This document shows positions 38,202 to 57,015 of a stretch of DNA of 57,015 bases, piece by piece. The translations under genes and the position numbers were made by a program. The notes beneath the pieces are model-generated. The model saw nothing but the letters and a program-made list of their open reading frames with translations. It had not been told where the DNA came from and did no database searches. The DNA is taken from IMG/VR virus record IMGVR_UViG_2522572023_000010. The stretch is one strand, 5' to 3'. The DNA comes from a virus. Taxonomy: Duplodnaviria; Heunggongvirae; Uroviricota; Caudoviricetes. How positions within the stretch are numbered: position 1 is the stretch's first letter; every line of letters starts with the position of its first letter.

Positions 38202-38214
38202 ATGATGCTGATAA

Positions 38215-38291: not shown

Positions 38292-38298
38292 TATGTGA

Positions 38299-40706: not shown

Positions 40707-40723
40707 CAACTTTCTCCACAAAA

Positions 40724-41713: not shown

Positions 41714-41722
41714 CGTAGAACC

Positions 41723-42238: not shown

Positions 42239-42253
42239 GCTCCACGCCTCCCA

Positions 42254-43063: not shown

Positions 43064-43082
43064 ACTTCGTTTCTCCTCTTAA

Positions 43083-43472
43083 TCAGGCGGCTGCACCCGC
43101 CGTTTTCTCGTACTTACTGATAGTGATCTCGACCTTCCCTTCCGGGATAACCGGTCCCCACTCCACCAGCATTCTTTTCACCTGGCTGTCGTCTTCCCAC
43201 ACACCCGCGTGTGTCAGGGCGTCAAACAGTGCCTTGTTATAGTTGTCCAGATCGCGGATCCTGTTATCAGGAGGAAACAACACGATCTCCACTGAAGCAG
43301 GTGCCGACGTTGGTTTTGGCAGACGACGTAACTGCTCAACTATTGCTGCACACGCCGCGCTCTGAAATTTTCGCCCCGCCGCGCTTATCAGGCTCTTACC
43401 AGCAAATGCCCCTTTGTTGGGGTGTCGCCAGTACGTGTTCACGCTGGGCGGGAAAGGCAGGATCAGCTTCAT
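43083..43472 (-). CDS. rusA: Holliday junction resolvase RusA
   Basis: 129 aa; PPSVNTYW...DLDNYNKALFDALTHAGVWEDDSQV matches RusA motifs. Confidence 0.85.
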   Translation of the reverse strand: MKLILPFPPSVNTYWRHPNKGAFAGKSLISAAGRKFQSAACAAIVEQLRRLPKPTSAPASVEIVLFPPDNRIRDLDNYNKALFDALTHAGVWEDDSQVKRMLVEWGPVIPEGKVEITISKYEKTAGAAA

Positions 43473-43795
43473 ACTTTCAGGCCTCTCTCATGTAACCAGT
43501 GAGTTGCACGCAGCCTTGCGTTTTCCTCACCGGCAAGCAGTGAGCGGATAATCCCGACCGCTTCGCTGTCGTCGTCCTTCACTGCGGTATGAAGCGTGAT
43601 CCCCCGGGCCACACCACGCTTTATCGTGATGACGCCTTTTTTCTCCAGTGCGCGAAGATGCTCCACCGCTGCATTCACTGAACGGTATCCCAGCATGGTT
43701 GCCACCTCCTGATTGGTTGGCGGGAAGCCACGTTCTTTCTGATAAGAAATCAGCATATCCAGCACCTGCTGCTGGCATTGAGTTAACGTCGTCAT
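43469..43795 (-). CDS. LexA N-terminal-like DNA-binding protein (no peptidase domain)
   Basis: 108 aa with winged-helix region ...FPPTNQEVATMLGYRSVNAAVEHLRALEKKGVI. Confidence 0.6.
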   Translation of the reverse strand: MTTLTQCQQQVLDMLISYQKERGFPPTNQEVATMLGYRSVNAAVEHLRALEKKGVITIKRGVARGITLHTAVKDDDSEAVGIIRSLLAGEENARLRATHWLHERGLKV

Positions 43796-44478
43796 GCCGC
43801 CATCTCCCTGACCAGTTTTTCTGCCTGCTGGCGAACCTGCGCCAGAAAGGCCTCACCACATGCCTCAAGTTCATCGCGCCCGATGTAGCTGATTGCCGGT
43901 CCCTTCCAGGTCTTGTCGAAAACAGCAATAGCACCAGCGAAGAAAGCGCCTGTCGGTACCTGCTTCTCGTCTTTCGGGATAAACCAGGCAGGCAGTTCAA
44001 AACCAATACGCCCTCGAATAAAAGCAATATGGTCCGCATCTTCCGGCCACCACACTTCGCTGGTGGCAGCTTTGATCAGGAAAACATAGCGCCCCCCCTT
44101 ATCACGCATGGCACTGGCATGTTTCATGATGTAACGCATGCCGGTGATGTATTGCCCCTCATGCTGACTGGCGCGGCTGTATGGGGGATTACCAAAGGCA
44201 GCCCCTTTAAGCTCCGCAAGACGTTCTGACCAGTCATGCGCCAGCGCGTTGTCTTCCGCCGTGTAATACGCAGCACATTTGGCGTTATCACCGTCAGTGA
44301 ACAGATCCAGAACAAACGGGCCAAACAGGGTGTTAATTCCCCAGAAAATGTTGTCCGGCGTGCGCCACTGATCGCCCACTTCCTTCAGTTCATGGGCTGG
44401 TTTGTTCCGCAGTTCCACCAGCGCCTGGCAATATTTATTACTCATTAAGCCCCCACGAAATTCCCTGACAGATACCAC
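43792..44478 (-). CDS. phage N6-adenine DNA methyltransferase (Dam-like)
   Basis: Catalytic motif FGNPPY; 228 aa. Confidence 0.8.
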   Translation of the reverse strand: MVSVREFRGGLMSNKYCQALVELRNKPAHELKEVGDQWRTPDNIFWGINTLFGPFVLDLFTDGDNAKCAAYYTAEDNALAHDWSERLAELKGAAFGNPPYSRASQHEGQYITGMRYIMKHASAMRDKGGRYVFLIKAATSEVWWPEDADHIAFIRGRIGFELPAWFIPKDEKQVPTGAFFAGAIAVFDKTWKGPAISYIGRDELEACGEAFLAQVRQQAEKLVREMAA

Positions 44479-44939
44479 TCTTCACCCGATGCAGCGCGCT
44501 TGCTGCTTTTCCGTAAGCACCGCTCACGACGTGCCAGAAAATTGTTTCGTTCTGGCTGGGAGTGGCTTTCACGGAATGCCGCCATCCACACCGTTGCAGC
44601 ACGACGGTATAAGCCCCTGGACTCCAGTTCTTCAGCCTGGCGGGTCAGGCACAAAATCACACGGGGATCGTTAGTGCCGACATAGAAATTGCGCACAGGT
44701 CTGGTTTCACGAACTGGTTGTGGTTCCGGTTCCTGCGCTCTCTCAGTCAGGCGCGGGAAATGTCTGCGTGTATCTCCTTCACAACGGTGAGCCACACGCC
44801 CACTCTGACGTAACTTGCTTGCTGACTGCAGAACGCGCTGCCGTGAGTAACCTGTAAAAGCATCCGCAATGTCTCCGGAAGTACACCCCGGATGGGCTTC
44901 AATGAATTTCTGAACGTCATTTAACAGACTCATGATCAC
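44445..44939 (-). CDS. PerC-like transcriptional regulator (HTH N-terminus plus PerC-type C-terminus)
   Basis: C-terminal LESRGLYRRAATVWMAAF resembles the PerC/Pch signature GLWRRAAxRW. Confidence 0.5.
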   Translation of the reverse strand: MIMSLLNDVQKFIEAHPGCTSGDIADAFTGYSRQRVLQSASKLRQSGRVAHRCEGDTRRHFPRLTERAQEPEPQPVRETRPVRNFYVGTNDPRVILCLTRQAEELESRGLYRRAATVWMAAFRESHSQPERNNFLARRERCLRKSSKRAASGEEWYLSGNFVGA

Positions 44940-45877
44940 CCCCTGAATCCTGCCGGGATCTGGCTGTAGTCCACGTTGTCGTAACTGGATTTGAAGTACG
45001 GGTCTTCGCGTTTTTCGGTGTACGTGCTGACGGACGGCGATAAGCGCAGGGAAAGCTCATCCCATTTTTCCCGCAGCTTCGACGGGCTGAGCACGTTACG
45101 GCACCAGAACGGATCGCGGCTGACGCGGCTGTACATCTCGCAGATTTGTTTGTGAGTACGACCATCCTGCACACACATAAGGCGAATTTCGTTTGCCCAG
45201 GCTGTCCAGTTCGGTTCTTTGGGACGAACCACCTCGCCGTCACATTCGGCGGCCTGCTCGTACAGGGCGATGATTTTTTTCCAGAGCCACTGTGCGCAGG
45301 TCAAATCATCCTGCGTTCCCCACTGGCGCTTTTTAGGGCTGAATACAACCGCATCAGGATGGCGAGTTAAAAACTCCTGTTCAGCCGTCTGCGTGTCCGG
45401 TTGCGAAGCGTCCGGACGAGAAGTTTTTTTATCTGACGGATCATGTTTTGATTTTACTGACGGATCCCCGCCAGATTCTGACGGGTGAAAACCCGCTTTT
45501 TTGCCAGATTTCGACGCATCAAATTTTGACTGGTCAGATTTTGATGCGTCAGATTTTGACGGGTCAGAATCTGACAGTTGAGAAAATGCCGCTGCCTGAA
45601 GCTTCGCAACGTTAAGCTGATAAACATTCGACGCATTGCGGTTACCCTGGCGACGCGCCTTACGCGTTAACCAGCCTTCTGCTTCCAGCCGTGCGATAGC
45701 CGTTCTGACGGTGCTCATCCCCGCACCAATCTGGCGGGCAATGGTTTCAATTGATGGCCAGCACACACCTTCGTCATTACTGAAATCAGCCAGGCGGGCC
45801 ATAATTGCCACGCTGGATAACTTCATGCCTGACGCAGCGCAACCATCCCATACATAGCCGGTTAATTTAGTGCTCAT
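44936..45877 (-). CDS. replication initiator (O-like, winged-helix N-terminus) with internal iteron origin
   Basis: N-terminal HTH region; central SKSDASKSDQSKFDASKSG repeats encoded by DNA iterons; position after the cro/cII-like genes. Confidence 0.75.
   Translation of the reverse strand: MSTKLTGYVWDGCAASGMKLSSVAIMARLADFSNDEGVCWPSIETIARQIGAGMSTVRTAIARLEAEGWLTRKARRQGNRNASNVYQLNVAKLQAAAFSQLSDSDPSKSDASKSDQSKFDASKSGKKAGFHPSESGGDPSVKSKHDPSDKKTSRPDASQPDTQTAEQEFLTRHPDAVVFSPKKRQWGTQDDLTCAQWLWKKIIALYEQAAECDGEVVRPKEPNWTAWANEIRLMCVQDGRTHKQICEMYSRVSRDPFWCRNVLSPSKLREKWDELSLRLSPSVSTYTEKREDPYFKSSYDNVDYSQIPAGFRG
45425..45590. repeat. iterons (about 7 copies of a 15-bp motif CAGATTTTGACGGGT) inside the replication gene; putative origin
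   Basis: cagattctgacgggt / cagatttcgacgcat / caaattttgactggt / cagattttgatgcgt / cagattttgacgggt / cagaatctgacag at regular spacing. Confidence 0.7.
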
Positions 45878-45886
45878 GACCGACCT

Positions 45887-46225
45887 CTATTTCCCTGAAT
45901 TTACGACGAAACTGTTCGAGCGGGCTGAAGCACTCATGCTCATAGCCTTCGCGGAGGTAGATAACCCGTTGTGTTTCCGGTTCCCAACGAATGACTCTGA
46001 CGGGCACTCCGTAGTGATCTTTGAACCAGCGGTTAACTTGTTGCAAAGGACTGTCTCCTTCTGCCGGTTGAAATCACCCACAGCCCACTCTGCAAAGCTG
46101 TGGGTTACAATTTCCCTGTCACCTGGTACATTCACCGCATAGCAATACTCCACCTTCGCTTTTCCACCCGGTACAGGAAGCGCAATCAGTTGCGAGCGAC
46201 GGTAGTGTGTTGTTAAACTGTTCAT
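45887..46225 (-). CDS. hypothetical protein (112 aa), translationally coupled to the upstream gene
   Basis: GGAG ribosome-binding site; ATGA start/stop overlap with the preceding gene. Confidence 0.45.
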
Positions 46226-46806
46226 GCGTTAGTTTCTCCACAACCAGAAGCAATCGACGCCACGACGCCCGGAGCTGCACACTCGCGGGCGTTACTCTTT
46301 TCCGGCGCACAAAAAACACGAAATAACAGTGTTAAATGCTCCTGCCACTTCGCCATTACTTGGTAGCTGTTCTCTTCGATTTGCTCACGCTCAGCCTGGT
46401 CAATAACTCCATCAGCAGTTGCCTTGCGTAAGTACTGGGAATGCTTGCCAATCCATTCTATTGACTCCATCAGCCGCTGATTAATGTCACCATTGTCAAT
46501 GTCATCAATGTCCACCAGCGGCACAAACACCCCATTACTACGACGCGCTATCGCATCCGTTACATGCCTGGTACCACTGGCATCCTGTAAAACCATGGCC
46601 CACTCAAGTGGAAAAATTTGATCCCCACCGCTACGCAGTCTGTTATGCAATTGATCTTTCGCTGGGGTGATATCATCAGATTTATACAAACCAAGAATTT
46701 CCGCTGCTTCCTCATAGCCATGAGGTAAATCAGCAATCGTTCTTCGTATTGCTGCCACCAGCCATGCTGGTTGCTTATCAACTTTCCATTCAGGTTCTTT
46801 ACCCAC
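46222..46806 (-). CDS. hypothetical early regulator in the cII position (194 aa)
   Basis: ORF immediately downstream of the cro-like gene; no motif recognised. Confidence 0.5.
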
Positions 46807-46834
46807 GGTTCATTCCTCGTTTCTGTGGTTACGT

Positions 46835-47098
46835 TTACGCAGTTGAACCGCTAACTTTTGAATAGCACTCAGGTAATCCATCATTTGGATTGGGGTAAAT
46901 ATCAGGACGCAGTTCATGAGGGGTCACGGACCAGTTTCCCAACTCACAAAGTTGTAAAACCCGTTCTGACGGGACTTGATTGTTAATTACCCAATTGGCG
47001 ACGGATTGAGTGGACTTAAAACCAAAGCGACGGGCTACTTCAGATAAAGACTTTCCCGCAGCCTTTACTGCTTTCTCTGTGTAGTTTTGAGATGACAT
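46835..47098 (-). CDS. cro: Cro-like (YdaS-type) helix-turn-helix regulator
   Basis: 87 aa; HTH LSEVARRFGFKSTQSVANWV; divergent from the repressor gene; GAGGAGAAAGG ribosome-binding site. Confidence 0.75.
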   Translation of the reverse strand: MSSQNYTEKAVKAAGKSLSEVARRFGFKSTQSVANWVINNQVPSERVLQLCELGNWSVTPHELRPDIYPNPNDGLPECYSKVSGSTA

Positions 47099-47104
47099 AC
47101 CTTT

Positions 47105-47165
47105 CTCCTCTGAAATTCAGAGGGATGATGCTACTTAAAATAGCAAATTGCAACTACTTAAAATA
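47105..47165. promoter_or_regulatory. right operator/promoter region (OR-like) between cro and cI
   Basis: Perfect 17-bp palindrome CCTCTGAAATTCAGAGG (47107-47123) and two copies of GCTACTTAAAATAGC-like near-palindromes (47131-47145, 47151-47165). Confidence 0.6.
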
Positions 47166-47909
47166 GAAATGACTAGCGCGTGTGATGTGAGTAATCTTCT
47201 ACCTATGGTAGAAGAACAGAAGTATCCAGATTTCGCCAAGAGACTAAACGAATTGATGACAATCAAAGGAATCTCTGTCACTCAACTCAAAAGTCTTGTG
47301 GGCGTTACATATGAAATGGCTCGTCGATACACAATCGGCGCAGCGAAGCCACGTGTCTCTGTCATGAGTAAACTTGCGTTGGCTCTTGGAGTATCAGCTT
47401 CATATCTAGAATATGGTGTTGGAGATAGAGAGGAATGTAAGGAAATGGCAAGCATCCCCAATCCAACAAAGCCCGATGTATACAGGATAGAAGTTTTGGA
47501 TCTTAGCGTTAGCGCAGGACCTGGGACCTATATGCTTTCAGACTATGTTGATGTGCTCTACGCCATTGAGTTCACAACTGAACATGCCCGTTCTCTTTTC
47601 GGAAACCGTTCTCAGAATGATATAAAAGTTATGACGGTAAATGGAGATAGTATGTCCCCAACTCTTGTTTCCGGGGATCGATTGTTTGTCGACATTTCCG
47701 TTCGCCACTTCCAGACTGATGGAGTTTACTCTTTCGTTTACGGTAAGACTTTCCATGTTAAACGTCTACAAATGCAAGGCAACAAACTAGCTGTTCTTTC
47801 GGATAACCCCGCCTATGAGAAATGGTACATTGATGAGAAGTCGCAAGATCAGCTTTATGTTATGGGTAAGGCACTGATTCATGAGTCGATTAAATATAAT
47901 CGACTTTAA
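47148..47909 (+). CDS. cI: CI-like repressor with S24 (LexA-type) autopeptidase domain
   Basis: N-terminal HTH (MTIKGISVTQLKSLVGVTYEMARRY), C-terminal S24 motifs including GDSMSPT (catalytic Ser) and a downstream Lys; exact start uncertain (ATG overlaps an operator). Confidence 0.85.
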   Translation: MQLLKIEMTSACDVSNLLPMVEEQKYPDFAKRLNELMTIKGISVTQLKSLVGVTYEMARRYTIGAAKPRVSVMSKLALALGVSASYLEYGVGDREECKEMASIPNPTKPDVYRIEVLDLSVSAGPGTYMLSDYVDVLYAIEFTTEHARSLFGNRSQNDIKVMTVNGDSMSPTLVSGDRLFVDISVRHFQTDGVYSFVYGKTFHVKRLQMQGNKLAVLSDNPAYEKWYIDEKSQDQLYVMGKALIHESIKYNRL

Positions 47910-48142
47910 TTAGGCATCTAGCAATCGTTAAAGCAAACGAGCACAGATGATAAAAGATAAGGATAGAAAATCTTTATACAAATTTTATTTGGCACATTGG
48001 TCCATAAAAATGGATTAACACTGAGCTGTTACCCTAAGTAAGAAAAGATAAAGACCATATGTTATCTTTGGGTGCGTTACTAACACAAAAAAACCAAAAT
48101 AAAACATAAATAATAGACAATTCTATACAACAGGATACGATA

Positions 48143-49228
48143 ATGATTAATGAACGTACTGAAGCGACAGATGGGGTAGCAGATATGATTTCCACCAATA
48201 CAAAATATTTAGTATGGAACAACAAAGGTGGTGTAGGAAAAACTTTTCTTACATATAATCTTGCCGTTGAGTTTGCTATATCTCATCCGGATCAAGATGT
48301 TGTGGTTATTGACTCATGCCCTCAATCAAACGTTTCAGAAATTATTCTTGGTGGCAATGGTACCGGGGAAGAAAATCTAAATAAATTGCGAGACAGAAAT
48401 GTTACAATCGCAGGTTATATCAAGGAGCGTTTTAGCAAATCTCCTTTGTCTCGTTTAGGAAATGAATCTTCTTACTTTGTACGAGCCCATGATGTTAATG
48501 CAAAAATGCCAGAGAACTTATATATTCTTCCTGGTGATGTCGATCTTGATATCTGTTCACGCTTAATATCTCACATTGGCTCATCCCCAGTAAAAGAAGC
48601 ATGGAAGAAAAGCCGATCTTTGCTGGTAGATCTAATAGCATCTTTTGAAGCCGATAAAAACATTTCTGACAGAGCAAAAACATTTTTTATTGATTGTAAT
48701 CCAAGTTTTGCCAGCTACACAGAATTGGGAGTAGTCGCGGCAAATAGAATAATTATCCCTTGCACTGCCGATGCTGCATCAATTCGCGGAATAAAAAACC
48801 TTGTTAAACTTATTTATGGAGTGTCTATTGACAAGTCAGAACAAGATGAAATGTTCTTAGATTTCAACAAAGAAGCAAAGCAAAACCTTATCGAACTACC
48901 TGAACTACACCTTTTCGTACAAAACCGCTCAAGAACTAATGAAAGTGATGCAGCAAAAGCATTCAAATCACATGCAGAAGAGATCAAAAGAATCACGGAT
49001 GACCTGTTAAATACACATCCTCATCTGTTCACAAATGTGGCTACTTTCGAGAGAGTTCAAAATGTCAAAGATGGTAATACTCTTGCAGCAATAATAAACC
49101 ATGAGGGATGCCCTTTAAGTAGGCTGCAGCATAAGAGTTACACTATCTATGGTATGGCGACCCAAGCTAATAGAGCACAAATTGAAGCACTAGAATCTGA
49201 TGTTTCAACAGTAGTCAAGTGTCTGTAA
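48143..49228 (+). CDS. ParA/MinD-family ATPase (361 aa), lone gene in the rexAB position; candidate exclusion or defence gene
   Basis: Deviant Walker A KGGVGKT, Walker B-like FFIDCNPSF; AT-rich coding sequence; followed by an intrinsic terminator. Confidence 0.75.
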   Translation: MINERTEATDGVADMISTNTKYLVWNNKGGVGKTFLTYNLAVEFAISHPDQDVVVIDSCPQSNVSEIILGGNGTGEENLNKLRDRNVTIAGYIKERFSKSPLSRLGNESSYFVRAHDVNAKMPENLYILPGDVDLDICSRLISHIGSSPVKEAWKKSRSLLVDLIASFEADKNISDRAKTFFIDCNPSFASYTELGVVAANRIIIPCTADAASIRGIKNLVKLIYGVSIDKSEQDEMFLDFNKEAKQNLIELPELHLFVQNRSRTNESDAAKAFKSHAEEIKRITDDLLNTHPHLFTNVATFERVQNVKDGNTLAAIINHEGCPLSRLQHKSYTIYGMATQANRAQIEALESDVSTVVKCL

Positions 49229-49263
49229 TACAATAACCATGATTTAGAACGAACATAATTCTC

Positions 49264-49288
49264 GCCCGACCAACCGGTCGGGTTTTAT
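49264..49288 (+). terminator. intrinsic terminator after the ParA-like gene
   Basis: CCCGACC-aacc-GGTCGGG followed by TTTTAT. Confidence 0.65.
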
Positions 49289-49525
49289 ACTCGTAGCCTG
49301 CTTAATAACACTGTTCCTGACCCGTTGTATCCATAGTTCCCACTATTTTCCCCCAAATTATTACTATCTAATTAACCTAATAATTAAACCAAAACAAAAG
49401 ACACTCGATATTTTCTATACGTAACTACGCCACATCACCCCATCTGTGAAAAACCTTTTAATTCATAACGTTATATAGAAAACTAAAAATTAAATACACA
49501 CTTCTACTTTTTGTTGTTGATTTTT

Positions 49526-49572
49526 GCTACTTTTAGTAGCATCATTATCTGAACAAACAACAGACTGTTGTT
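49526..49572. promoter_or_regulatory. left operator (OL-like) palindromes
   Basis: GCTACTTTTAGTAGC (49526-49540) shares the GCTACT half-site with the OR repeats; perfect 17-bp palindrome AACAACAGACTGTTGTT (49556-49572). Confidence 0.5.
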
Positions 49573-50160
49573 AACGAAAGGTTGGTTGTAACACGGCGTA
49601 TGGCACATGCGTCGTTAGCGGTCTGGGGACGTTAAAGGGGACAATCCACTCCTTGCTCGGGCAAACAAACCAGGTAGCCGGAATGTGCAAGTCAATGAGG
49701 ATGCTGATAAGACGCCTAACCAGCGTGGCGATTCGGTTTGACGCCTGGGAAGAGACCAGGGTGCAACGATGAGGGCATTTATGGAACCGCGACAAAGTGT
49801 GGTGCCGTAACTGGCTAAGTGCTCTCAGCGTTGTGGTGAATGCGCAGGCTGATGCGCGAAAGACATTGCAGCTATTGCGGAAAAGAGCTGTTCGGCGGGG
49901 CAATTAAACGCCCGTGAGAGTCTGAAATAACCGCAAGCCGGAGATCAGCACCGGTCACCACAACAGCCACTGCTTTGGCGGTACCAGTTTGTACACTTGC
50001 TTCCGGCTGGTACCGCTCTTTTTACAAAACAGAGAAGAGCATCACCGGACGACGGGCTCATAACCCAATCCACCCGGGCGGCTGCCACCGCAGGTGCTCT
50101 TCTCTGTTTTGTGGAGAAACCAACCGACCTTGCAGGGTCGATATGATGAGGAGCAGCAAA

Positions 50161-50523
50161 ATGGCTAGCGAACGCAGTACTGATGTGCAGGCATTTATCG
50201 GGGAGCTGGACGGCGGCGTATTTGAAACCAAAATCGGCGCTGTTCTCAGTGAAGTCGCTTCAGGTGTGATGAACACGAAAACCAAAGGGAAGGTCTCGCT
50301 CAACCTGGAAATCGAACCGTTTGATGAGAACCGTGTGAAAATAAAACACAAACTCTCATATGTTCGTCCGACTAACCGCGGGAAAATTTCCGAAGAAGAC
50401 ACCACCGAAACGCCGATGTATGTCAATCGCGGTGGTCGCCTGACTATTCTGCAGGAAGACCAGGGACAATTACTGACTCTTGCCGGTGAACCTGACGGAA
50501 AACTCCGCGCAGCAGGTCATTAA
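50161..50523 (+). CDS. YfdP-like early protein (CPS-53-type)
   Basis: 120 aa; GAGGAG ribosome-binding site before ATG 50161; first gene of the rightward early operon. Confidence 0.55.
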   Translation: MASERSTDVQAFIGELDGGVFETKIGAVLSEVASGVMNTKTKGKVSLNLEIEPFDENRVKIKHKLSYVRPTNRGKISEEDTTETPMYVNRGGRLTILQEDQGQLLTLAGEPDGKLRAAGH

Positions 50524-50588
50524 TATCGTTCTTAATTAACTGATTATTTATCTCATCACTGAATATCCTTATATAGTGAGGACTTATT

Positions 50589-51413
50589 ATGTCTCAGAAC
50601 TTAGACGCAACCGCAATTAATCAAATCCATGCCCTTATTTCTGCTCAGGGTGTTAATGAAATTATTAGTAAGATTGGTGCCGATGCTGTGGCATTGCCTG
50701 AGAATTTCCGCATTCATGATCTGGAAAAATTTAATTTAAATCGCTTCCGTTTCCGTGGTGCGCTTTCCACTGCCAGCATCGATGACTTTACCCGTTATTC
50801 TAAAGATCTTGCAGATGAAGGCACCCGCTGCTTTATCGATGCCGATAATATGCGTGCCGTCAGTGTGCTTAACCTGGGTACTATTGATGAACCAGGTCAC
50901 GCAGATAACACCGCCACTCTCAAACTGAAAAAGACAGCACCGTTCTCTGCTCTGTTGTCTGTTAATGGCGAGCGTAACTCCCAAAAGTCACTGGCAGAAT
51001 GGATTGAAGACTGGGCCGACTACCTTGTGGGCTTTGATGCTAATGGTGACGCCATTCAGGCAACCAAAGCGGCTGCGGCGATCCGTAAAATCACAATTGA
51101 AGCGAACCAGACCGCTGATTTTGAAGACAATGACTTCAGCGGCAAACGCTCCCTGATGGAGTCTGTCGAAGCGAAGACCAAAGACATTATGCCAGTGGCA
51201 TTTGAATTTAAATGCGTTCCGTTTGAAGGCCTGAAAGAACGTCCGTTTAAATTACGCCTCAGCATTATCACTGGCGATCGTCCTGTACTGGTTCTGCGCA
51301 TTATTCAGCTGGAAGCGGTGCAGGAAGAAATGGCTAACGAATTTCGTGATCTGCTTGTTGAGAAATTTAAAGACAGCAAAGTAGAAACCTTTATTGGTAC
51401 TTTCACCGCCTGA
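50589..51413 (+). CDS. YfdQ-like protein (DUF2303 family)
   Basis: 274 aa; synteny with the following HD-domain gene. Confidence 0.55.
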
Positions 51414-51540
51414 TTTCATTACTGCAAATGCCCCTGCGGGGGCATTTATGGAAACATAATTAACTCAATAATCGCCGGATGGTGAGGGCTTCCTTTTACC
51501 AGAATTCAGCGCGGTGCAGCGCATATACGTGGAGAACAAA

Positions 51541-52077
51541 ATGTCATTTATTAAAACTTTTTCCGGGAAGCATTTTTATTATGACAAGATAAATAAAGAC
51601 GACATCGTTATTAACGATATCGCGGTTTCCCTTTCAAATATCTGTCGCTTTGCAGGACATCTTTCACACTTCTACAGCGTCGCCCAACATGCGGTGCTTT
51701 GCAGCCAGCTGGTACCGCAGGAATTTGCTTTTGAAGCGTTAATGCATGATGCAACAGAAGCATATTGCCAGGACATCCCCGCACCACTGAAACGCCTTCT
51801 TCCTGACTATAAACGGATGGAAGAAAAAATAGACGCCGTAATCCGTGAGAAATACGGGTTACCCCCGGTTATGAGCACGCCTGTGAAATATGCCGATCTC
51901 ATCATGCTGGCAACCGAACGCCGCGATCTCGGGCTTGATGATGGCTCTTTCTGGCCTGTACTGGAAGGCATCCCGGCAACAGAGATGTTCAACGTGATTC
52001 CACTGGCACCGGGCCATGCCTACGGGATGTTTATGGAACGTTTTAACGAGTTATCGGAGTTACGCAAATGCGCATGA
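51541..52077 (+). CDS. HD-domain phosphohydrolase (YfdR-like)
   Basis: MSFIKTFSGKHFYYDK... with H...HD metal-binding motifs (FAGH, MHDATEAY); GGAG ribosome-binding site. Confidence 0.65.
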   Translation: MSFIKTFSGKHFYYDKINKDDIVINDIAVSLSNICRFAGHLSHFYSVAQHAVLCSQLVPQEFAFEALMHDATEAYCQDIPAPLKRLLPDYKRMEEKIDAVIREKYGLPPVMSTPVKYADLIMLATERRDLGLDDGSFWPVLEGIPATEMFNVIPLAPGHAYGMFMERFNELSELRKCA

Positions 52078-52430
52078 ATGTTTTCGAAATGGAAGGGTTT
52101 CTTCGCGGGAAATGTGTACCGCGAGATCTGAAAGTGAACGAAACAAATGCTGAGTACCTGGTACGTAAATTCGACGCGCTTGAAGCTAAATGTGCGGCAC
52201 TGGAAAACAAAATAATACCAGTGTCAGCTGAACTGCCACCAGCAAATGAAAGTGTTCTGTTATTTGATGCTAATGGAGAAGGCTGGCTGATTGGCTGGCG
52301 TTCTCTCTGGTACACCTGGGGACAAAAAGAAACCGGAGAATGGCAGTGGATATTTCAGGTCGGGGACCTTGAAAACGTCAATATCACTCACTGGGCAGTA
52401 ATGCCGAAAGCACCGGAGAATAAGAAATGA
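52068..52430 (+). CDS. DUF551-type protein (YfdS-like)
   Basis: 120 aa ending ...NITHWAVMPKAPE. Confidence 0.5.
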   Translation: MRMNVFEMEGFLRGKCVPRDLKVNETNAEYLVRKFDALEAKCAALENKIIPVSAELPPANESVLLFDANGEGWLIGWRSLWYTWGQKETGEWQWIFQVGDLENVNITHWAVMPKAPENKK

Positions 52431-52630
52431 GCGTGATAAAAACTCATACAGGAATTGTTATCACCCGAGACGGTCCGCAGGTAAAAAAACTGCACCAGAC
52501 AAAGCGGATGTGGGTCGTCGGAAAAAACGAGTTTTACCACAAAGAAACCGGACGCCGCCATTTTGCAGAAAATACGCGCCGCCGACTGCTGTTAGACACC
52601 ATCAAGCCTATCGAGGTGAAGCATGTTTAA
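52427..52630 (+). CDS. small hypothetical early protein
   Basis: ATGA stop/start coupling with neighbours. Confidence 0.4.
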   Translation: MSVIKTHTGIVITRDGPQVKKLHQTKRMWVVGKNEFYHKETGRRHFAENTRRRLLLDTIKPIEVKHV

Positions 52631-52862
52631 ACAGAACGAAAAAGCTATCGCTCAAATTGCTGATTATATCCCGCGTGCGTGCCGGGGTATGCAGTTGCAG
52701 GAAGCCAAAGCGCGCCTGGAGAAAAAAATTGCGCTCTATATTGATGACGGCTGTGATGCTGCCGTTCTTAACGCAGCGTTCGCGCCAGCTCTTAACAGTC
52801 ATACGCGGGAGTCTTTTTTTTCGCGCATCGCAGCGCAGATCCGTAAAGGAGGCAACCAGTGA
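52623..52862 (+). CDS. small hypothetical early protein
   Basis: ATGA stop/start coupling with neighbours. Confidence 0.4.
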   Translation: MFKQNEKAIAQIADYIPRACRGMQLQEAKARLEKKIALYIDDGCDAAVLNAAFAPALNSHTRESFFSRIAAQIRKGGNQ

Positions 52863-53410
52863 GCGAGATTAACTATCAGGCTCTGCGACTGGCGGCAGAA
52901 AATGCAACACCAGGCGAATGGTGTGCTGATGACTACCATGGAGTAATTGCCGATGCCGGACTGAACGCCAATTACTACATAGCATCATGCTCAGGACCAG
53001 ATAATCGCGCCAATAAACGATTCATAGCCGCCGCCAATCCTGCCACCGTCTTGGCGCTGCTGGATGAGCTGGAAGCAGCAGAGAAGCGAAACGCTGAATT
53101 ACAAAGCGAGAATGCATACATCCGCAACCGGTACAAAGAACTGGACCTATTAATCGGGAAAAACATTCTGGTCATGCAGACTGCCATTATCGAATGGCAG
53201 GCAACTGGCGACGCTAAGAGCGGACTGGCATGGATTTATAACACACTGTTTGGCCCTGGCGAATTACCGGACGAATCTGAGAAAGATGCTCAGGCCTACT
53301 TTAATCGCAAATATGCACCGATTGACGAAAAGCTTATGGCGCTTCACAAGTGGTTTTGGGAACAAAGTGAAGCAGAGCGCGCCGCAGGCGCTCGCATTAA
53401 AGGAGGGTGA
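52859..53410 (+). CDS. Ead/Ea22-like early protein
   Basis: 183 aa with coiled-coil centre; typical early-left operon position. Confidence 0.5.
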   Translation: MSEINYQALRLAAENATPGEWCADDYHGVIADAGLNANYYIASCSGPDNRANKRFIAAANPATVLALLDELEAAEKRNAELQSENAYIRNRYKELDLLIGKNILVMQTAIIEWQATGDAKSGLAWIYNTLFGPGELPDESEKDAQAYFNRKYAPIDEKLMALHKWFWEQSEAERAAGARIKGG

Positions 53411-53415
53411 GAAAG

Positions 53416-53603
53416 TGAATCGAACAATAATAGTGACAACAGTAATTTCAGTCCCTGCCAATGCTCCGCATCAGGATATTGATGATTTTGTCGAGAGTAA
53501 ATTCGGGCAAGACAAGGATATGAAACCGGATAACTTATGTTATGGAGATGTTACTGAAATAATTAGCCATCATTGGGAGTATGGCTCTCATTACATGAAT
53601 TAA
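53416..53603 (+). CDS. small hypothetical protein (GTG start)
   Basis: GGAGGG ribosome-binding site then GTG; 62 aa. Confidence 0.35.
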
Positions 53604-53693
53604 TTACATCATATCGTTAATTTAATCCTTAACCGGAGGGATTTCTGCACCCTCAGAACATCAGGAGGCAGCCCGAAAGGGCGGTAACAAATA

Positions 53694-54170
53694 ATGCAAG
53701 ACATCAAAGAAAATATCAGGCAACAGCTTTACGGGTTTTATATTGCTTATGATTTGTGGCTGAAGAACGGGGCAAAACCCGGCGGAGTGTTTTCTCAAAA
53801 TTATGGTTTATGCGCCAATCTTTTCGATTATCTCACATTAATTGGTACCCCCTGTGAGGCAGCGCTGGAGCAATTACACGCTGATTTCAGAAGTGCCGGG
53901 CTGAATGAGGCGTTGCCGTTTAACGAGGGTAAAGAGCATTACCATGAAGAAAGAGGGCACAACATGTGCCATATGAATCCGGCACGAGTGGCGTGGGTCA
54001 GGGCGCAGACAGGGCAGCCAGCGCCGGAAGGACTGGTTAAAGCGGTGCGCTTCTATGAACAGGTTAAGCGTGAAAATCCGCCAGTCGAAACCGGAGCATG
54101 GAAAGACGCTGTTGATTGGGTGTTCAAAGAGGCTTGTCAGGCTGTAAACATTCGCATCAAAGGAGAGTGA
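53694..54170 (+). CDS. hypothetical early protein (158 aa)
   Basis: ORF track; coding-like composition. Confidence 0.5.
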   Translation: MQDIKENIRQQLYGFYIAYDLWLKNGAKPGGVFSQNYGLCANLFDYLTLIGTPCEAALEQLHADFRSAGLNEALPFNEGKEHYHEERGHNMCHMNPARVAWVRAQTGQPAPEGLVKAVRFYEQVKRENPPVETGAWKDAVDWVFKEACQAVNIRIKGE

Positions 54171-54363
54171 GATGAACGGACAAATATCAATTATTCGCCC
54201 TGGCGCTTGTGACGAAGACAATAAGGCTGATTATCCGCCTTGCGATGGGTAGAACAATAACTGCTCTCATTACTCCAGAAAATCTCGCATTAGCATTAAC
54301 CGGAAAGTCAGACCTGCCAGTAGAGCTAAAGCTGCGAAATGTTGAGATTAAGGTGAAATAGCT

Positions 54364-54954
54364 ATGACCACTTTTACCAATAGCAAACTAACAGACGAAT
54401 ACGTTTCAAATGCAACGTTGATTCGGCTCATTCTGTGGGCTGACCAGCACAATAGCCATTATGTTGTAGCGGCTCTGCGCGAGCTACAGGAGCGCCGCAA
54501 GGCTGATAGTGCAGAACCTGGAAGCCAAACTTACAAGTTGCCAGTTAATACACCTTGCCAAGATGCGCCAGCCCATATCTGGCTGCAAACGGCTGGAGTA
54601 TGGCCAGAAGATGGCGAGTTAAGCGAATTAACGTGGTGCAGCCACAATCAACACCATGATGACACGCTATATGTTCGAGCTGACCTTGTGAATGGCAACT
54701 ATCCGGCAACTCCGGATGGTTGGATAAGCTGTAGTGAGCGAATGCCTGAAATGGGAGAGCGACAATGCTATGTGTTAGCAGCTGACTTTAAAAACAACTA
54801 CCCACCAAACATCCCCAACACTCAGGTCGGCGTATATGGCGACTGGTTTAATGATGGCAAGCCCACTTGGGATGACGGTGATGGCGAAGACCTGTATCTC
54901 AAAGAGGTAACCCACTGGATGCAGCTACCAGAACCGCCGCAGGAGGTGAAATGA
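54364..54954 (+). CDS. DUF551 domain protein
   Basis: C-terminal VTHWMQLPEPP motif. Confidence 0.55.
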   Translation: MTTFTNSKLTDEYVSNATLIRLILWADQHNSHYVVAALRELQERRKADSAEPGSQTYKLPVNTPCQDAPAHIWLQTAGVWPEDGELSELTWCSHNQHHDDTLYVRADLVNGNYPATPDGWISCSERMPEMGERQCYVLAADFKNNYPPNIPNTQVGVYGDWFNDGKPTWDDGDGEDLYLKEVTHWMQLPEPPQEVK

Positions 54955-55041
54955 TGAATTGGCCTGAAGCATTCACCGCAGTTGGAGTTGCAATAGCGGT
55001 GGCATTTATTCTGTATTCGCTTTTCCGCTGGGGATAAAGGA

Positions 55042-55284
55042 ATGTTCGCTCTGATTCAACGTGGTCAGATATACACGGACAGAGCCGGATACCCTGTGGT
55101 GATTACTCGCAGTACTCAGCACTCAGTGTTCTTTCGACGCATGGACGGGCGCTCCGGACGGGTACGCATTGGTGAGTTCAACAACCTGTTCGAACATATT
55201 GACCAACAGGAGTACCGCAAAATTCTGGCGGGCACTGAGCAGGAAATGCGCCTGAAAAAATTACGCGCAATGCAACGGAGGTGA
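55042..55284 (+). CDS. hypothetical early protein (80 aa)
   Basis: ORF track; GGAA ribosome-binding site. Confidence 0.45.
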   Translation: MFALIQRGQIYTDRAGYPVVITRSTQHSVFFRRMDGRSGRVRIGEFNNLFEHIDQQEYRKILAGTEQEMRLKKLRAMQRR

Positions 55285-55440
55285 TACATGCATACGGCTT
55301 TTGAGTTCTGGGTTCGCAAGACATTCGGCAATCGCTACGACCTGACCCGTGATGTCGACGGCTTCTACTGCCGTGAAGTTGTGAAACGAATGTTTGACGT
55401 GTGGTGCCACTGCCGTGGATGAAAGTTTTATGAGGTTGGC

Positions 55441-55695
55441 ATGCAGACAATCATCTATCAGATAACCCCCAGCAAATGGTGTACGGAGAGAGTCCTTATT
55501 GCATCAACAGGGCTAAAGCCCGGCACCATCGAGCGGGCCAGAAGAAAGTCATGGATGCAGGGAAAAGAATACCGCCATTACGCTGTAGAAGGTGATCCTG
55601 GGCATTACAGTGAATGCCTGTACAACATCGAAGAAATTATGCGATGGATCGAAAACCAGAAACAACCAGGTGCCAAAAATGCAAGTTCCGGTTAA
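55441..55695 (+). CDS. xis: excisionase-like protein
   Basis: 84 aa; IYQITPSKWCTERVLIASTGLKPGTIERARRK resembles E. coli prophage excisionases; directly upstream of the integrase. Confidence 0.7.
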   Translation: MQTIIYQITPSKWCTERVLIASTGLKPGTIERARRKSWMQGKEYRHYAVEGDPGHYSECLYNIEEIMRWIENQKQPGAKNASSG

Positions 55696-55728
55696 CCTGT
55701 TAATGCTCCTGGACGTCTGGGAGGTTTA

Positions 55729-57015
55729 ATGAGTAACGCATCATACCCGACAGGCGTTGAAAACCATGGAGGATCACTCCGTATATGGTTTCACTATAAT
55801 GGCAAACGTGTCAGAGAAAACCTCGGTGTTCCTGACACAGCCAAAAACCGGAAGATCGCTGGTGAACTTCGCACTTCCGTTTGTTTTGCAATCAGAATGG
55901 GGAGTTTCGACTACGCCGCGCAGTTCCCTAATTCCCCTAACCTGAAACACTTTGGTCTGGGAAAAAGAGAGATAACCGTTAAGGCACTTTCGGAAAAATG
56001 GTTGGACCTTAAGAAAATTGAGATTTGTGCGAATGCACTTAACCGTTACCAGTCAGTAATTAAAAACATGTTACCAATGTTAGGTGAAAAAAAACTGGTT
56101 TCATCCATAACAAAAGAGGATTTACTTTTCGTAAGGAGAGATTTGTTGACCGGTTACCAAAAGCTTTCTAATGGAAAGACTTCTTCCATAAAAGGGCGCT
56201 CAGTGGTCACGGTAAACTACTATATGACAACCATAGCTGGAATGTTTCAATTTGCAACAGATAATGGTTATACCTCAGGAAACCCATTTAACGGTCTGGC
56301 TCCCTTAAAAAAGTCCAAGGTAAAACCAGATCCTCTCACCCGTGACGAATTTATTCGTTTTATTGAGGCTTGCCGTCATCAACAAACAAAAAACCTGTGG
56401 ATTCTCGCTGTATACACGGGTATTCGTCACGGGGAGTTGGTATCGCTGGCATGGGAAGATATAGACCTTAAAGCAAGGACTATAACCATCCGTAGAAATT
56501 ATACAAAACTTGGCGAATTCACTCCACCAAAAACCGATGCAGGCACCGGAAGGACAATTCATCTGGTTCAACCAGCTATTGATGCTCTTAAAAGCCAGGC
56601 GGAAATGACCATGCTTGGAAAGCAACATTCTGTAGAGGTGAAGCAGAGGGAATATGGGAGAACTGCTGTGCATAAATGCACTTTTGTTTTTAGTCCTCAG
56701 GTAACAAAACAGCAGCAGTTGTCCGGACCTCACTACAAGGTTGACTCCATCAGGGAGTCATGGACAAGTATCTTAAAACGCGCAGGTCTGAGACACAGAA
56801 AATCGTACCAATCCAGGCATACTTATGCATGCTGGTCACTTGCCGCAGGAGCTAATCCTAGTTTTATCGCAAGCCAGATGGGCCACACAAACGCACAAAT
56901 GGTATTCAATGTTTACGGAGCATGGATGAAAGACAACAATCACGAACAGATAGAACTCCTTAACAAAAGACTATCTGAAAGTGTCCCATGTATGCCCCAT
57001 AAGAAAGCAGGGTAA
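55729..57015 (+). CDS. int: tyrosine recombinase / phage integrase
   Basis: 428 aa; C-terminal catalytic region with R...HxxR...Y (RHTYACWSL...HTNAQMVFNVY); complete ORF ending at the window edge. Confidence 0.9.
   Translation: MSNASYPTGVENHGGSLRIWFHYNGKRVRENLGVPDTAKNRKIAGELRTSVCFAIRMGSFDYAAQFPNSPNLKHFGLGKREITVKALSEKWLDLKKIEICANALNRYQSVIKNMLPMLGEKKLVSSITKEDLLFVRRDLLTGYQKLSNGKTSSIKGRSVVTVNYYMTTIAGMFQFATDNGYTSGNPFNGLAPLKKSKVKPDPLTRDEFIRFIEACRHQQTKNLWILAVYTGIRHGELVSLAWEDIDLKARTITIRRNYTKLGEFTPPKTDAGTGRTIHLVQPAIDALKSQAEMTMLGKQHSVEVKQREYGRTAVHKCTFVFSPQVTKQQQLSGPHYKVDSIRESWTSILKRAGLRHRKSYQSRHTYACWSLAAGANPSFIASQMGHTNAQMVFNVYGAWMKDNNHEQIELLNKRLSESVPCMPHKKAG

What the first reader, a model, noticed from the sequence alone, without database searches (positions are those of the whole stretch)
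49290..50160. Long structured, ORF-poor leader between the left operator and the first early gene; no N gene evident
Between the ParA terminator and the first early gene there are about 870 nt with no ORF of 60 aa or more on the + strand. It begins AT-rich with the operator-like palindromes and then becomes GC-rich with strong secondary structure: an 8-bp stem GGTACCAG...CTGGTACC (about 49975-50010), a boxA-like CGCTCTTTTTA, and a stem of about 18 bp (AAAACAGAGAAGAGCATCACC ... GGTGCTCTTCTCTGTTTT, about 50025-50112). The position corresponds to pL-nutL-N of lambda. The absence of an obvious N ORF together with large hairpins suggests RNA-based antitermination (HK022 put-like) or an unannotated small Arg-rich ORF (a 29-aa ORF MCKSMRMLIRRLTSVAIRFDAWEETRVQR lies at about 49688-49777).
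Basis: partly seen in the sequence, partly recalled or inferred. Interest (0 to 1): 0.55.

Follow-up and report, generated by a model that had tools for sequence, protein, structure and literature searches.

The report
Modular structured RNA leader of prophage early operon
The 600-base gap before the first early gene of this E. coli prophage is a transcribed, non-coding leader built from four separately conserved RNA structures: one new RNA family, one new conserved hairpin, and relatives of the known prophage small RNAs STnc100 and DicF. It is not an HK022-type put antiterminator and it does not hide an N gene.

Summary

- **Not put.** A covariance model built from 24 put RNAs finds HK022 putL, HK022 putR and HK639 putL, but nothing in this window.
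- **No N.** No N homologue was found. The 29-aa Arg-rich ORF is not conserved.
- **boxA-like motif.** It is the 3' strand plus U-run of a terminator hairpin.

The leader is a chain of modules that occur separately in other phages:
- **Module A (49590-49763, plus hairpin P6 to 49833).** A roughly 170-nt pseudoknotted RNA absent from Rfam 15. Support is strong (96% of cells paired, 10-12 covarying pairs in two independently ascertained sets) and it carries a near-invariant 19-mer. It occurs in pL leaders across Enterobacterales, in P1's ban operon, and next to tRNA-Arg in epsilon15-like phages.
- **Module B (49830-49964).** A divergent STnc100/PasD-type unit.
- **H1 (49977-50023).** A DicF-type intrinsic terminator.
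- **H2 (50019-50117).** A three-way hairpin with an invariant tip, almost always in leaders downstream of a cI-like ORF.

The most likely mechanism is a non-coding RNA cassette plus attenuator, as in the dicF region of prophage Qin. RNA-based antitermination by A or H2 remains a live rival.

The parts
49518..49546 (+). Putative pL promoter (TTGATT-17 nt-CATCAT) overlapping the operator OL, TGCTACTTTTAGTAGCA (49525-49541). The transcription start is inferred at about 49553.
   Evidence: The operator differs at two positions from the OR operator at 47129-47145. Homology with phages of other immunity types starts just downstream, at 49572. The promoter hexamers were read by eye (8 of 12 matches) and fall below the scan threshold. 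This part is inferred.
49590..49763 (+). Module A core, a new structured RNA family. Helices: P1 49594-49614; P2 49618-49626 with 49670-49678, closing a variable arm; P4 49712-49726; pseudoknot 49718-49721 with 49735-49738; P5 49744-49760 with loop GAAGAGA. A near-invariant 19-mer, GGUAGCCGGAAUGUGCAAG, lies at 49673-49691.
   Evidence: Model R1 scores 140.7 bits here, and this is the only copy in the window. On 33 sequences that are less than 93% identical, 95.8% of cells pair against 26-47% in slid controls, with 12 covarying pairs and 0 of 500 shuffles as good. An independently ascertained set from 16+ bacterial species gives 96.5% paired and 10 covarying pairs. The 19-mer is exact in 21 of 22 of that set. 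There is no Rfam 15 match.
49764..49833 (+). P6, a long hairpin (CAACGAUGAGGGCA ... UGCUCUCAGCGUUG) with a variable tip. It is an optional 3' extension of module A and a paralogue of the outer stem of H2.
   Evidence: Fold energy is -31.2 kcal/mol, z -4.6. The stem strands are conserved around variable inserts in phiV10, Tyrion, SPN1S and BUCT711. P6-like and H2-like units both occur in ST64B.
49830..49964 (+). Module B, a divergent STnc100/PasD-type unit. Closing helix: GUUGUGGUG (49830-49838) with CACCACAAC (49956-49964). Hairpin a: 49842-49857. Then a variable middle. Hairpin b: 49937-49955.
   Evidence: It has the same architecture and flanks as the SfV, ST64B and e14 units, which hit Rfam STnc100 at 39.5, 35.1 and 29.2 bits, below the cut-off of 47. 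The canonical STnc100 at 36589-36755(-) has that architecture too. Hairpins a and b show compensatory changes in 21 type-1 units. The window copy itself gives no STnc100 hit even at E up to 10.
49977..50023 (+). H1, a DicF-type intrinsic-terminator hairpin (13-bp stem, 49977-49989 with 50005-50017) followed by the U-run UCUUUUU.
   Evidence: Fold energy is -21.2 kcal/mol, z -4.3. Nine of 10 stem pairs covary, while YUUUUUAC is invariant. In SfV it aligns with the terminator of the STnc100 model. The e14 homologue hits Rfam DicF over the full model at 28.5 bits. The window copy aligns with DicF nt 12-59.
50019..50117 (+). H2, a 25-bp stem closing a three-way junction. The tip CACCGGRCGACGGGCUCAUWACCCAAUCCACCCGGGC (50043-50079) is invariant. 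The base of the stem pairs the U-run of H1 with a conserved GGAGA (50113-50117).
   Evidence: Fold energy is -51.6 kcal/mol, z -7.4. Five outer-stem pairs and two pairs of the side hairpin covary, and one internal mismatch is conserved. It lies 250-1300 nt downstream of a cI-like ORF at most of the distinct loci listed (122 distinct loci scanned) and precedes different first genes. There is no Rfam match.
50125..50163 (+). Small hairpin (50125-50140), Shine-Dalgarno sequence GAGGAG (50148-50153) and the ATG of the yfdP-like first early gene (50161-50523).
   Evidence: Read from the sequence. The hairpin is no better than shuffles here (z 0.06), but a hairpin of different sequence occupies the same place in relatives. 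yfdP is annotated in relatives.

Best explanation
Window 49550-50160 is the untranslated 5' leader of the repressor-controlled early-left (pL) operon of a yfdP-type lambdoid prophage (the SfV / ST64B / mEp460 group; 100% identical over this leader to a stretch of the E. coli O145:H28 RM12761 chromosome).

It is a tandem array of self-contained RNA modules, which phages shuffle independently:
- module A plus P6, a new pseudoknotted RNA;
- module B, a divergent STnc100/PasD-type unit;
- H1, a DicF-type intrinsic terminator;
- H2, a conserved three-way hairpin that abuts the terminator.

Proposed working, which is inferred:
1. When the repressor leaves OL, RNA polymerase transcribes the array.
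2. A fraction of transcripts ends at H1. This releases a non-coding RNA of about 470 nt (A + B), possibly trimmed further, as DicF and STnc100 are.
3. The rest reads through.
4. H2 then forms, swallows the terminator's U-run, and marks or stabilises the 5' end of the yfdP...xis-int message. A perfect 25-bp stem is a plausible RNase III site.

The leader would thus act as an RNA-gene cassette combined with an attenuator, like the dicF region of the Qin dicB operon. Module A, with its invariant unpaired nucleotides, most probably binds a conserved host partner rather than acting by base pairing.
For: Shown:
- The operator is shared with OR, and the mosaic boundary lies at 49572.
- Covariation supports every module.
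- There is no conserved reading frame, and database annotations conflict in strand.
- G-U pairs such as GU:33 and UG:33 in P2 fix the transcribed strand as +.

The modules occur separately:
- A plus P6 lies directly 5' of tRNA-Arg in phiV10, SPN1S and BUCT711. A lies 3 nt 3' of tRNA-Ile before ban in P1, P7 and SJ46.
- B-type units with P6 occur in the unrelated phages swi2 and UPM2146.
- B + H1 + H2 occur without A in SfV, ST64B and e14.
- H2 lies downstream of a cI-like ORF at most distinct loci. Module A is present in about 35% of them and B-type flank motifs in about 50%.

Links to known elements:
- H1 corresponds to the terminator of the STnc100 model in SfV and is DicF-like in e14.
- In Qin, dicF and its terminator are followed by an STnc100-like unit before dicB.
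- STnc100 is a detected RNA, measured by RT-PCR in vesicles and cited as an sRNA (PMC12370729; bioRxiv 10.64898/2026.05.13.724894).
Against: - No transcript ends, processing sites or termination efficiencies are available. Termination at H1 and cleavage at H2 are inferred from sequence alone.
- H1 has a long loop of 15-19 nt, which usually weakens a terminator.
- The window's B and H1 copies do not reach any Rfam score. Their assignment rests on architecture, flanks and intermediates.
- The function of STnc100 is itself unknown.
- Nothing explains the 19-mer of module A or the invariant tip of H2.
- If H1 terminates well, the phage still needs a way to express xis and int 5-7 kb downstream. 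This model does not supply one.
Confidence: 0.5

Rival explanations
1. RNA-mediated processive antitermination without put homology. Module A (where present) and/or H2 binds the transcribing RNA polymerase. The polymerase then ignores H1 and later stop signals all the way to xis and int. This would be the functional counterpart of N/nut or put in this N-less phage group.
For: - The position is right: module A begins about 40 nt after the inferred pL start, as putL does in HK022.
- The phage group has neither N nor put (PMC12315714).
- A terminator (H1) lies between pL and the first gene, ahead of a 7-kb operon ending in xis-int.
- Invariant unpaired nucleotides on covarying stems (the 19-mer and the H2 tip) are what a polymerase- or protein-binding RNA looks like.
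- Module A and put share the strands of their first stem (ACGGCG...CAUGCGUCG) at the same place.
- put stays active after being cut from the transcript, so the tRNA-adjacent copies would be compatible.
Against: - Module A is missing from SfV, ST64B, phiNP, LLS and e14, which have the same H1-H2 and the same operon.
- H2 lies downstream of H1, so it cannot rescue H1.
- In epsilon15-like phages module A heads a very short unit (tRNA plus one gene).
- No strong + strand terminators were found inside 50160-57015 by the simple scan.
- There is no second copy on the pR side.
- The shared 6+9 nt with put is within chance for a 57-kb window (blast E about 21).
Confidence: 0.25
2. Module A is a ligand- or signal-sensing element (riboswitch-like). 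It sets how much pL transcription continues by switching between the P1 hairpin and the long-range pairing GGCACAU (49603-49609) with AUGUGC (49683-49688).
For: - RNAalifold prefers the long-range pairing, and both partners are invariant, while P1 is independently supported by covariation. The two structures are therefore mutually exclusive.
- It has pseudoknotted, aptamer-like conservation.
- It always lies at the 5' side of genes or tRNAs on the same strand.
Against: - There is no consistent expression platform. The element is followed by a tRNA, by P6, by ban, or by a convergent terminator in different phages.
- H1 lies more than 200 nt away.
- The long-range pairing has no covariation, because it never varies.
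Confidence: 0.1
3. The region encodes a small N-like protein: the 29/39-aa Arg-rich ORF at 49653/49688-49777, or a protein on the - strand (110 aa, 49571-49903, annotated as gp37 in mEp460).
For: ORFs of these sizes exist. One is annotated in mEp460. The 29-aa peptide is Arg-rich.
Against: - From the conserved ATG, relatives read 5 to 96 aa in three different frames.
- Substitutions follow base-pairing, not codons.
- The - strand ORF has no Pfam match.
- Annotations in relatives disagree in strand and extent.
- Many G-U pairs would be C-A mismatches on the other strand.
Confidence: 0.03

Closest known systems
dicF region of the dicB operon, cryptic lambdoid prophage Qin, E. coli K-12
   Same: - It is an early-left type operon under a cI-like repressor (DicA).
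- It has a long non-coding stretch before the first well-known gene.
- That stretch contains a DicF hairpin with a U-run terminator and an STnc100-like unit.
- H1 of the window aligns with DicF nt 12-59.
- From my own knowledge (Faubladier et al. 1990), DicF is released by termination and by RNase III/RNase E processing.
   Different: - The order is reversed: DicF then the STnc100-like unit in Qin, but the STnc100-like unit then H1 here.
- The window copy lacks the DicF 5' part and gives no Rfam DicF hit.
- Qin has neither module A nor H2 in the stretch read.
STnc100 (Rfam RF02076) / PasD prophage small RNAs
   Same: - Module B has the same plan: a closing helix UGGUG/CACCA, hairpin a, a variable middle, and hairpin b with a conserved loop. 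A terminator follows.
- A canonical copy sits in the same window at 36589-36755(-) (101 bits).
- Intermediates in SfV, ST64B, e14 and P1 score 29-40 bits.
   Different: - The window's leader copy has different hairpin sequences (type 1: GCGCAGGCUGAUGCGC and GCCGGAGAUCAGCACCGG) and no Rfam score.
- It sits in the pL leader rather than the late region.
- The function of STnc100 is unknown.
HK022 / HK639 put antiterminator RNA
   Same: - It is a cis RNA placed right after pL in an N-less lambdoid phage.
- It has strongly conserved nucleotides on paired scaffolds.
- It shares the strands ACGGCG...CAUGCGUCG of the first stem.
   Different: - put is about 70 nt with two stem-loops. Module A is about 170 nt with five helices and a pseudoknot.
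- The put model finds no match in the window, and the module A model finds none in HK022 or HK639.
- There is no right-operon copy.
Lambda pL-nutL-N leader
   Same: - The genomic position is the same, downstream of cI (plus a moron) and OL/pL.
- It is a long structured leader before the first early-left gene.
   Different: - There is no N.
- The boxA-like string is not conserved.
- No boxB-type hairpin tied to an N-like protein was found.

Membership tests
HK022-type put RNA | Sequence and structure fit the two-stem put consensus (stem I AGUCGAACGGCGCGAC..UAAACCAUGCGUCGG; stem II ..GGCGGG-hairpin-CGGCAAU..). | tested here: not met
   Model R2, built from 24 put sequences, finds HK022 putL (92.6 bits), HK639 putL (91.3) and the held-out HK022 putR (31.2). 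It finds nothing in the window with default filters. In 46000-50600 with filters off the best score is 6.4 bits, and it lies elsewhere.
HK022-type put RNA | Promotes read-through of downstream terminators in cis and depends on the beta' zinc-binding domain. | not testable with these tools
   This needs reporter or in vitro transcription assays.
Lambda N / nut antitermination | An N-family protein is encoded as the first pL gene or elsewhere. | tested here: not met
   Pfam scans of 20 ORFs in 40365-57015, including the larger ORFs of the early-left operon, found Q (PF06530) but no N family. The first gene is yfdP-like, is not Arg-rich at its N terminus, and has no Pfam hit.
Lambda N / nut antitermination | A conserved boxA (CGCUCUUA) next to a boxB hairpin. 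| tested here: not met
   In relatives the GCTCTT string is replaced by GTCCTT, GACCTT, GCCCTT or CACCTT, because it is the covarying 3' strand of H1.
STnc100 (RF02076) | Scores at or above the Rfam gathering cut-off of 47 bits. | tested here: not met
   There is no hit in 49780-50040 even at E up to 10. The late-region copy at 36589-36755(-) scores 101 bits.
STnc100 (RF02076) | Architecture: closing helix UGGUG/CACCA, hairpin a, a variable segment, hairpin b, then a terminator. | tested here: met
   In the window these are 49830-49838 with 49956-49964, 49842-49857, 49937-49955 and H1. Compensatory changes occur in both hairpins across 21 units. Positional homologues in SfV, ST64B and e14 hit the model at 29-40 bits.
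DicF (RF00039) | A 53-nt RNA with a 5' targeting part and a 3' GGCGG...CCGCC terminator hairpin plus U-run. | tested here: inconclusive
   H1 aligns with DicF nt 12-59, and UUUGGCGGUAYCAGUUU is shared. The e14 homologue hits the full model at 28.5 bits, below the cut-off of 48. The window copy lacks the 5' part and gives no Rfam hit.
Module A (new family proposed here) | P1-P2-P4/pseudoknot-P5 fold with the 19-mer GGUAGCCGGAAUGUGCAAG. | tested here: met
   Model R1 scores 140.7 bits at 49590-49763. Covariation holds in two sets ascertained by different patterns. The 19-mer is exact in 21 of 22 sequences in the set not selected for it.

The most novel reading that the evidence does not exclude
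Module A (and perhaps the invariant tip of H2) is a new class of host-factor- or RNA-polymerase-binding phage RNA. On this reading it gives N-less, put-less lambdoid phages their early antitermination or another takeover function. The same portable element would be used by P1 in the ban operon and by epsilon15-like phages in front of a tRNA.
Probability: 0.22. Interest if true: 0.85.

Novelty: new variant of a known kind. Interest (0 to 1): 0.6.

Why it matters
- **An open question becomes testable.** Many lambdoid phages (the SfV, ST64B, mEp460, LLS and several Stx2 phage groups) have no N protein and no put RNA. How they express their early-left genes is unknown, and recent literature states it only as a guess. 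This work gives defined RNA elements with exact borders to delete or fuse to reporters. One homologous set (STnc100-like, DicF-like and H2) lies in the e14 prophage of E. coli K-12, where public transcriptome data already exist.
- **Two conserved RNAs appear to be undescribed.** Module A and H2 are absent from Rfam 15, and a full-text search for their core sequences found nothing. Some part of the leader occurs in 2950 of 5426 complete E. coli genomes.
- **Annotation clean-up.** Several annotated 'hypothetical proteins' (ymfH in e14, gp36/gp37 of mEp460) are probably RNA, not protein.
- **A shared toolkit.** STnc100- and DicF-type units, module A and tRNAs appear to form a kit of RNA modules that unrelated phages exchange.

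Tried and rejected
- **Rfam 15** at permissive thresholds on the leader and on the whole window found nothing in 49290-50160.
- **put family membership** was rejected by covariance model. The module A model was also absent from HK022 and HK639.
- **Protein coding** was rejected: the 29/39-aa ORF and the - strand 110-aa ORF.
- **tRNA or tmRNA** in the leader: ARAGORN found only the three late-region tRNAs.
- **HNH-endonuclease remnant.** The idea that 49840-49917 (MRRLMRERHCSYCGKEL) is one was dropped once the segment proved to be the 5' hairpin and variable middle of an STnc100-type unit.
- **Pas small RNAs.** Identity of module A with them was rejected. They are confined to Escherichia and Shigella, and PasB lies in structural operons.
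- **Full-text search** for six core sequence strings gave no papers.
- **King et al. 2011** (PMC3187212), on HK639 put, is not held.
- **Module B alone** (49836-49975) folds no better than shuffles (z +0.5). Its structure only became clear by comparison.
- **A second copy of module A** on the pR side: none found.
Full report
**1. Setting**

The window carries a lambdoid immunity region.
- On the - strand lie a cII-like gene (46222-46806) and a cro-like gene (46835-47098).
- On the + strand lie an S24/HTH cI-like repressor (47148-47909) and a ParA/AAA_31 ATPase (48143-49228) with a clear terminator (49264-49283 plus T-run).
- Downstream on the + strand come a yfdP-like gene (50161-50523), yfdQ (DUF2303), a yfdR-like gene, DUF551 and Ea22 genes, an excisionase (55441-55695) and an integrase (55729-57015).

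This is an early-left operon of about 7.5 kb. Pfam finds a late antiterminator Q at 40365-40721(-) but no N family anywhere I looked. The leader sequence (49550-50165) is 100% identical to a stretch of the E. coli O145:H28 RM12761 chromosome.

**2. The observation**

The gap holds no conserved ORF.
- The palindrome TGCTACTTTTAGTAGCA at 49525-49541 matches the operator TGCTACTTAAAATAGCA at 47129-47145 between cro and cI. OL, and with it pL, lies at about 49518-49546. My reading is TTGATT-17-CATCAT, with a start near 49553; this is inferred.
- Homology with phages of other immunity types begins at 49572. That is where a boundary downstream of the immunity-specific operators should fall.
- The whole 606-nt stretch has z = -5.1 on the + strand.

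**3. The leader is a mosaic**

A distant BLAST search showed that different parts of the 600 nt match different, unrelated phages. I therefore treated the parts separately.

**4. Module A (49590-49763) plus P6 (49764-49833)**

*Where else it occurs.* This stretch is conserved at 78-83% identity, with no annotation, in these places:
- epsilon15-like phages (phiV10, SPN1S, Tyrion, BUCT711), where it ends 0-3 nt before tRNA-Arg(UCU);
- P1, P7 and SJ46, where it starts 3 nt after tRNA-Ile and precedes ban.

It yielded 130 copies and 33 representatives below 93% identity.

*Fold.* On their alignment I read five helices:
- P1, a 9-bp hairpin;
- P2, which closes a variable arm;
- P4, with loop YUCACCA;
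- a pseudoknot between that loop and GGUG downstream (CACC:GGUG, becoming AACC:GGUU in the window lineage);
- P5, with loop GAAGAGA.

*Support.* 95.8% of cells pair, against 26-47% when partners are slid. Twelve pairs change on both sides, and 0 of 500 shuffles do as well.

*Independent set.* The first set was chosen through the 19-mer, so I took a second set from one-genome-per-species bacterial contigs, using a pattern in P1 instead. It gave 21 loci. All are Enterobacterales, apart from one 1.7-kb contig labelled as a Bacillota MAG. The model scores them at 128-169 bits. They give 96.5% paired and 10 covarying pairs, and the 19-mer is exact in 21 of 22.

*Other points.*
- RNAalifold also proposes a long-range pairing of two invariant strings, GGCACAU with AUGUGC, which excludes P1. 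It cannot be tested because neither side varies.
- The many G-U pairs fix the RNA strand as +.
- Rfam 15 has no match, and a full-text search for the core strings found no paper.

*Context.* In 18 of 33 representatives, module A lies 100-200 nt after a cI-like ORF of 210-280 aa with a divergent cro-like ORF. The genes that follow vary. The window has one copy and none on the pR side.

**5. Module B (49830-49964)**

On its own this piece folds no better than chance. Comparison explains it.
- The unrelated phages swi2 and Klebsiella UPM2146 share its two ends: GUUGUGGUGAAUGCGCAGGCUGAUGCGCG and GCCGGAGAUCAGCACCGGYCACCACA.
- A permissive Rfam scan of relatives gave sub-threshold STnc100 (RF02076) hits exactly at the homologous place: SfV 39.5 bits over the full model, ST64B 35.1, P1 33.4 and e14 29.2, against a cut-off of 47.
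- The STnc100 plan is a closing helix UGGUG/CACCA, hairpin a, a variable middle, hairpin b, then a terminator. This is the plan of 49830-50023.
- Across 21 'type 1' units, hairpin a changes from GCGCA/UGCGC to GGCGG/CCGCC, GCACA/UGUGC and GCCCA/UGGGC with a constant loop. Hairpin b changes from GCCGG/CCGGC to GCUGG/CCAGC and GUCGG/CCGAC.
- The window's own copy gets no Rfam score. I therefore call it a divergent relative, not a member by Rfam's criterion.
- A canonical STnc100 (101 bits) sits in the late region of the same window at 36589-36755(-).
- STnc100 is a detected prophage RNA of unknown role, recently linked to PasD.

**6. H1 (49977-50023)**

This is a 13-bp GC-rich stem followed by UCUUUUU.
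- Among 23 diverged relatives the stem sequence is almost wholly replaced while pairing is kept (9 of 10 pairs covary). YUUUUUAC stays fixed.
- It is therefore a terminator-type hairpin.
- In SfV it aligns with the terminator of the STnc100 model.
- In e14 the same segment hits the full DicF model (28.5 bits against a cut-off of 48).
- The window copy aligns with DicF nt 12-59.
- In Qin, dicF and its terminator are followed by an STnc100-like unit before dicB. The same pieces thus occur there in the opposite order.

**7. H2 (50019-50117)**

A 25-bp stem closes a three-way junction.
- The outer stem covaries (for example GC:14/CG:9, AU:17/GC:5 and CG:16/AU:4) and keeps one conserved mismatch. 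The side hairpin covaries too.
- The 37-nt tip never varies across Escherichia, Salmonella, Citrobacter and Klebsiella phages. This is partly due to how the sequences were ascertained.
- The base of the stem pairs the U-run of H1 with a conserved GGAGA.
- H2 is the most constant piece of this leader type. It lies 250-1300 nt after a cI-like ORF at most of the distinct loci listed (122 distinct loci scanned). Among the 113 with at least 1200 nt of upstream sequence, module A is present in about 35% and B-type motifs in about 50%. It precedes different first genes: yfdP, xisE in e14, and others.
- ST64B has two 'terminator, then CAACAG...GUUGUGG hairpin' units, which shows that P6 and H2 are paralogues.

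**8. Is it put?**

From a pattern scan I collected 50 distinct put sequences. I aligned 24 of them and built a model.
- The model recovers HK022 putL, HK639 putL (annotated in that record) and the held-out HK022 putR.
- It finds nothing in the window, mEp460, ST64B or SfV, and only a 7.6-bit chance-level match (E 6.6) in LLS.
- It also finds nothing in 46000-50600 with filters off.
- Module A and put share only ACGGCG...CAUGCGUCG, the two strands of their first stem. That is a lead, not a test.

**9. Mechanism**

*Shown:* the anatomy, conservation, strand, position after OL/pL, absence of N and put, and the independent mobility of the modules.

*Inferred:*
- transcripts from pL partly stop at H1, giving a non-coding RNA that carries A and B;
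- read-through transcripts fold H2, which may be cut (it is a long perfect duplex) or may protect the message.

This parallels what is known for DicF. That statement rests on my own knowledge of Faubladier et al. 1990, which was not checked here.

*Main rival:* A and/or H2 is a new antiterminator RNA.
- For it: the position, the lack of N and put, a terminator in the leader, and invariant unpaired nucleotides.
- Against it: A is absent from close relatives with the same operon, H2 lies after H1, and no strong internal terminators were seen.

I give the cassette-plus-attenuator reading 0.5, antitermination 0.25, a sensing switch 0.1 and coding 0.03.

**10. Novelty and limits**

The kind of region is known: prophage early-operon leaders that carry small-RNA modules, as in dicF and STnc100. 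New here are this composition, module A and H2. All functional statements are inferences from sequence.

Ascertainment bias applies.
- Exact-pattern scans inflate the apparent invariance of the 19-mer. This was checked with the second set.
- The same applies to the H2 tip, which was not independently checked.

Noticed in passing
L225 (phage swi2) about 1003-1035 and L226 (Klebsiella phage UPM2146) about 1027-1059, with the following roughly 300 nt: Two unrelated virulent phages carry a tmRNA-tag-like reading frame: GCA AAC GAA GAA AUG UAU CUG GCC GUA GCU UAA = ANEEMYLAVA*, and ANDNTFLAVA*. It lies upstream of a P6-like hairpin that contains a T-arm (GGCGGUUCGACUCCGC) and a type-1 STnc100-like unit. 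This may be a phage tmRNA-like RNA. Rfam gives only weak tmRNA hits, and ARAGORN's call in swi2 borrows the neighbouring tRNA-Met.
   Followed up: partly
window 36589-36755 (-) and 38125-38374 (-): A canonical STnc100 small RNA (101 bits) lies in the late region, downstream of three tRNA genes (Met, Arg-UCG, Arg-UCU) and of Q (40365-40721). The phage therefore carries both a canonical and a divergent STnc100-type unit.
   Followed up: partly
L368 (K-12-type e14 prophage) 2330-2675; L001 (mEp460) 3963-4516; L002 3946-4562: The annotated CDSs ymfH (e14), gp36/gp37 (mEp460) and _14 to _16 (phiSTEC1575-Stx2k) lie on the structured RNA modules and disagree in strand between records. They are probably not genes. 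In e14 the STnc100-like, DicF-like and H2 elements sit directly upstream of xisE-intE.
   Followed up: partly
window 48143-49228: A ParA/AAA_31-type ATPase with its own terminator sits between cI and OL/pL, the place held by rexAB in lambda. It may be a lysogen-expressed moron, perhaps with an exclusion or defence role.
   Followed up: no
window 49937-49954: Hairpin b of module B (GCCGGAGAUCAGCACCGG) is nearly identical to nt 30-47 of the E. coli small RNA rydB (Rfam alignment, 13.7 bits).
   Followed up: no
window 49830-49833: The four bases GUUG are claimed both by the base of P6 (CAACG/CGUUG) and by the closing helix of module B (GUUGUGGUG/CACCACAAC). The two pairings exclude each other.
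   Followed up: no
L003 (phage P1) 280-381, 837-990, 1569-1688, 2422-2497, 2501-2683: P1's ban operon is packed with RNA elements in a row before ban: a dicF-like region, tRNA-Asn, tRNA-Thr, an STnc100-like unit (33 bits), tRNA-Ile and module A.
   Followed up: partly
L009 (SPN1S) about 1640-1720: The variable tip of P6 in SPN1S contains sequences resembling the 3' half of a tRNA (CUGGUUCAAUUCCAG...).
   Followed up: no
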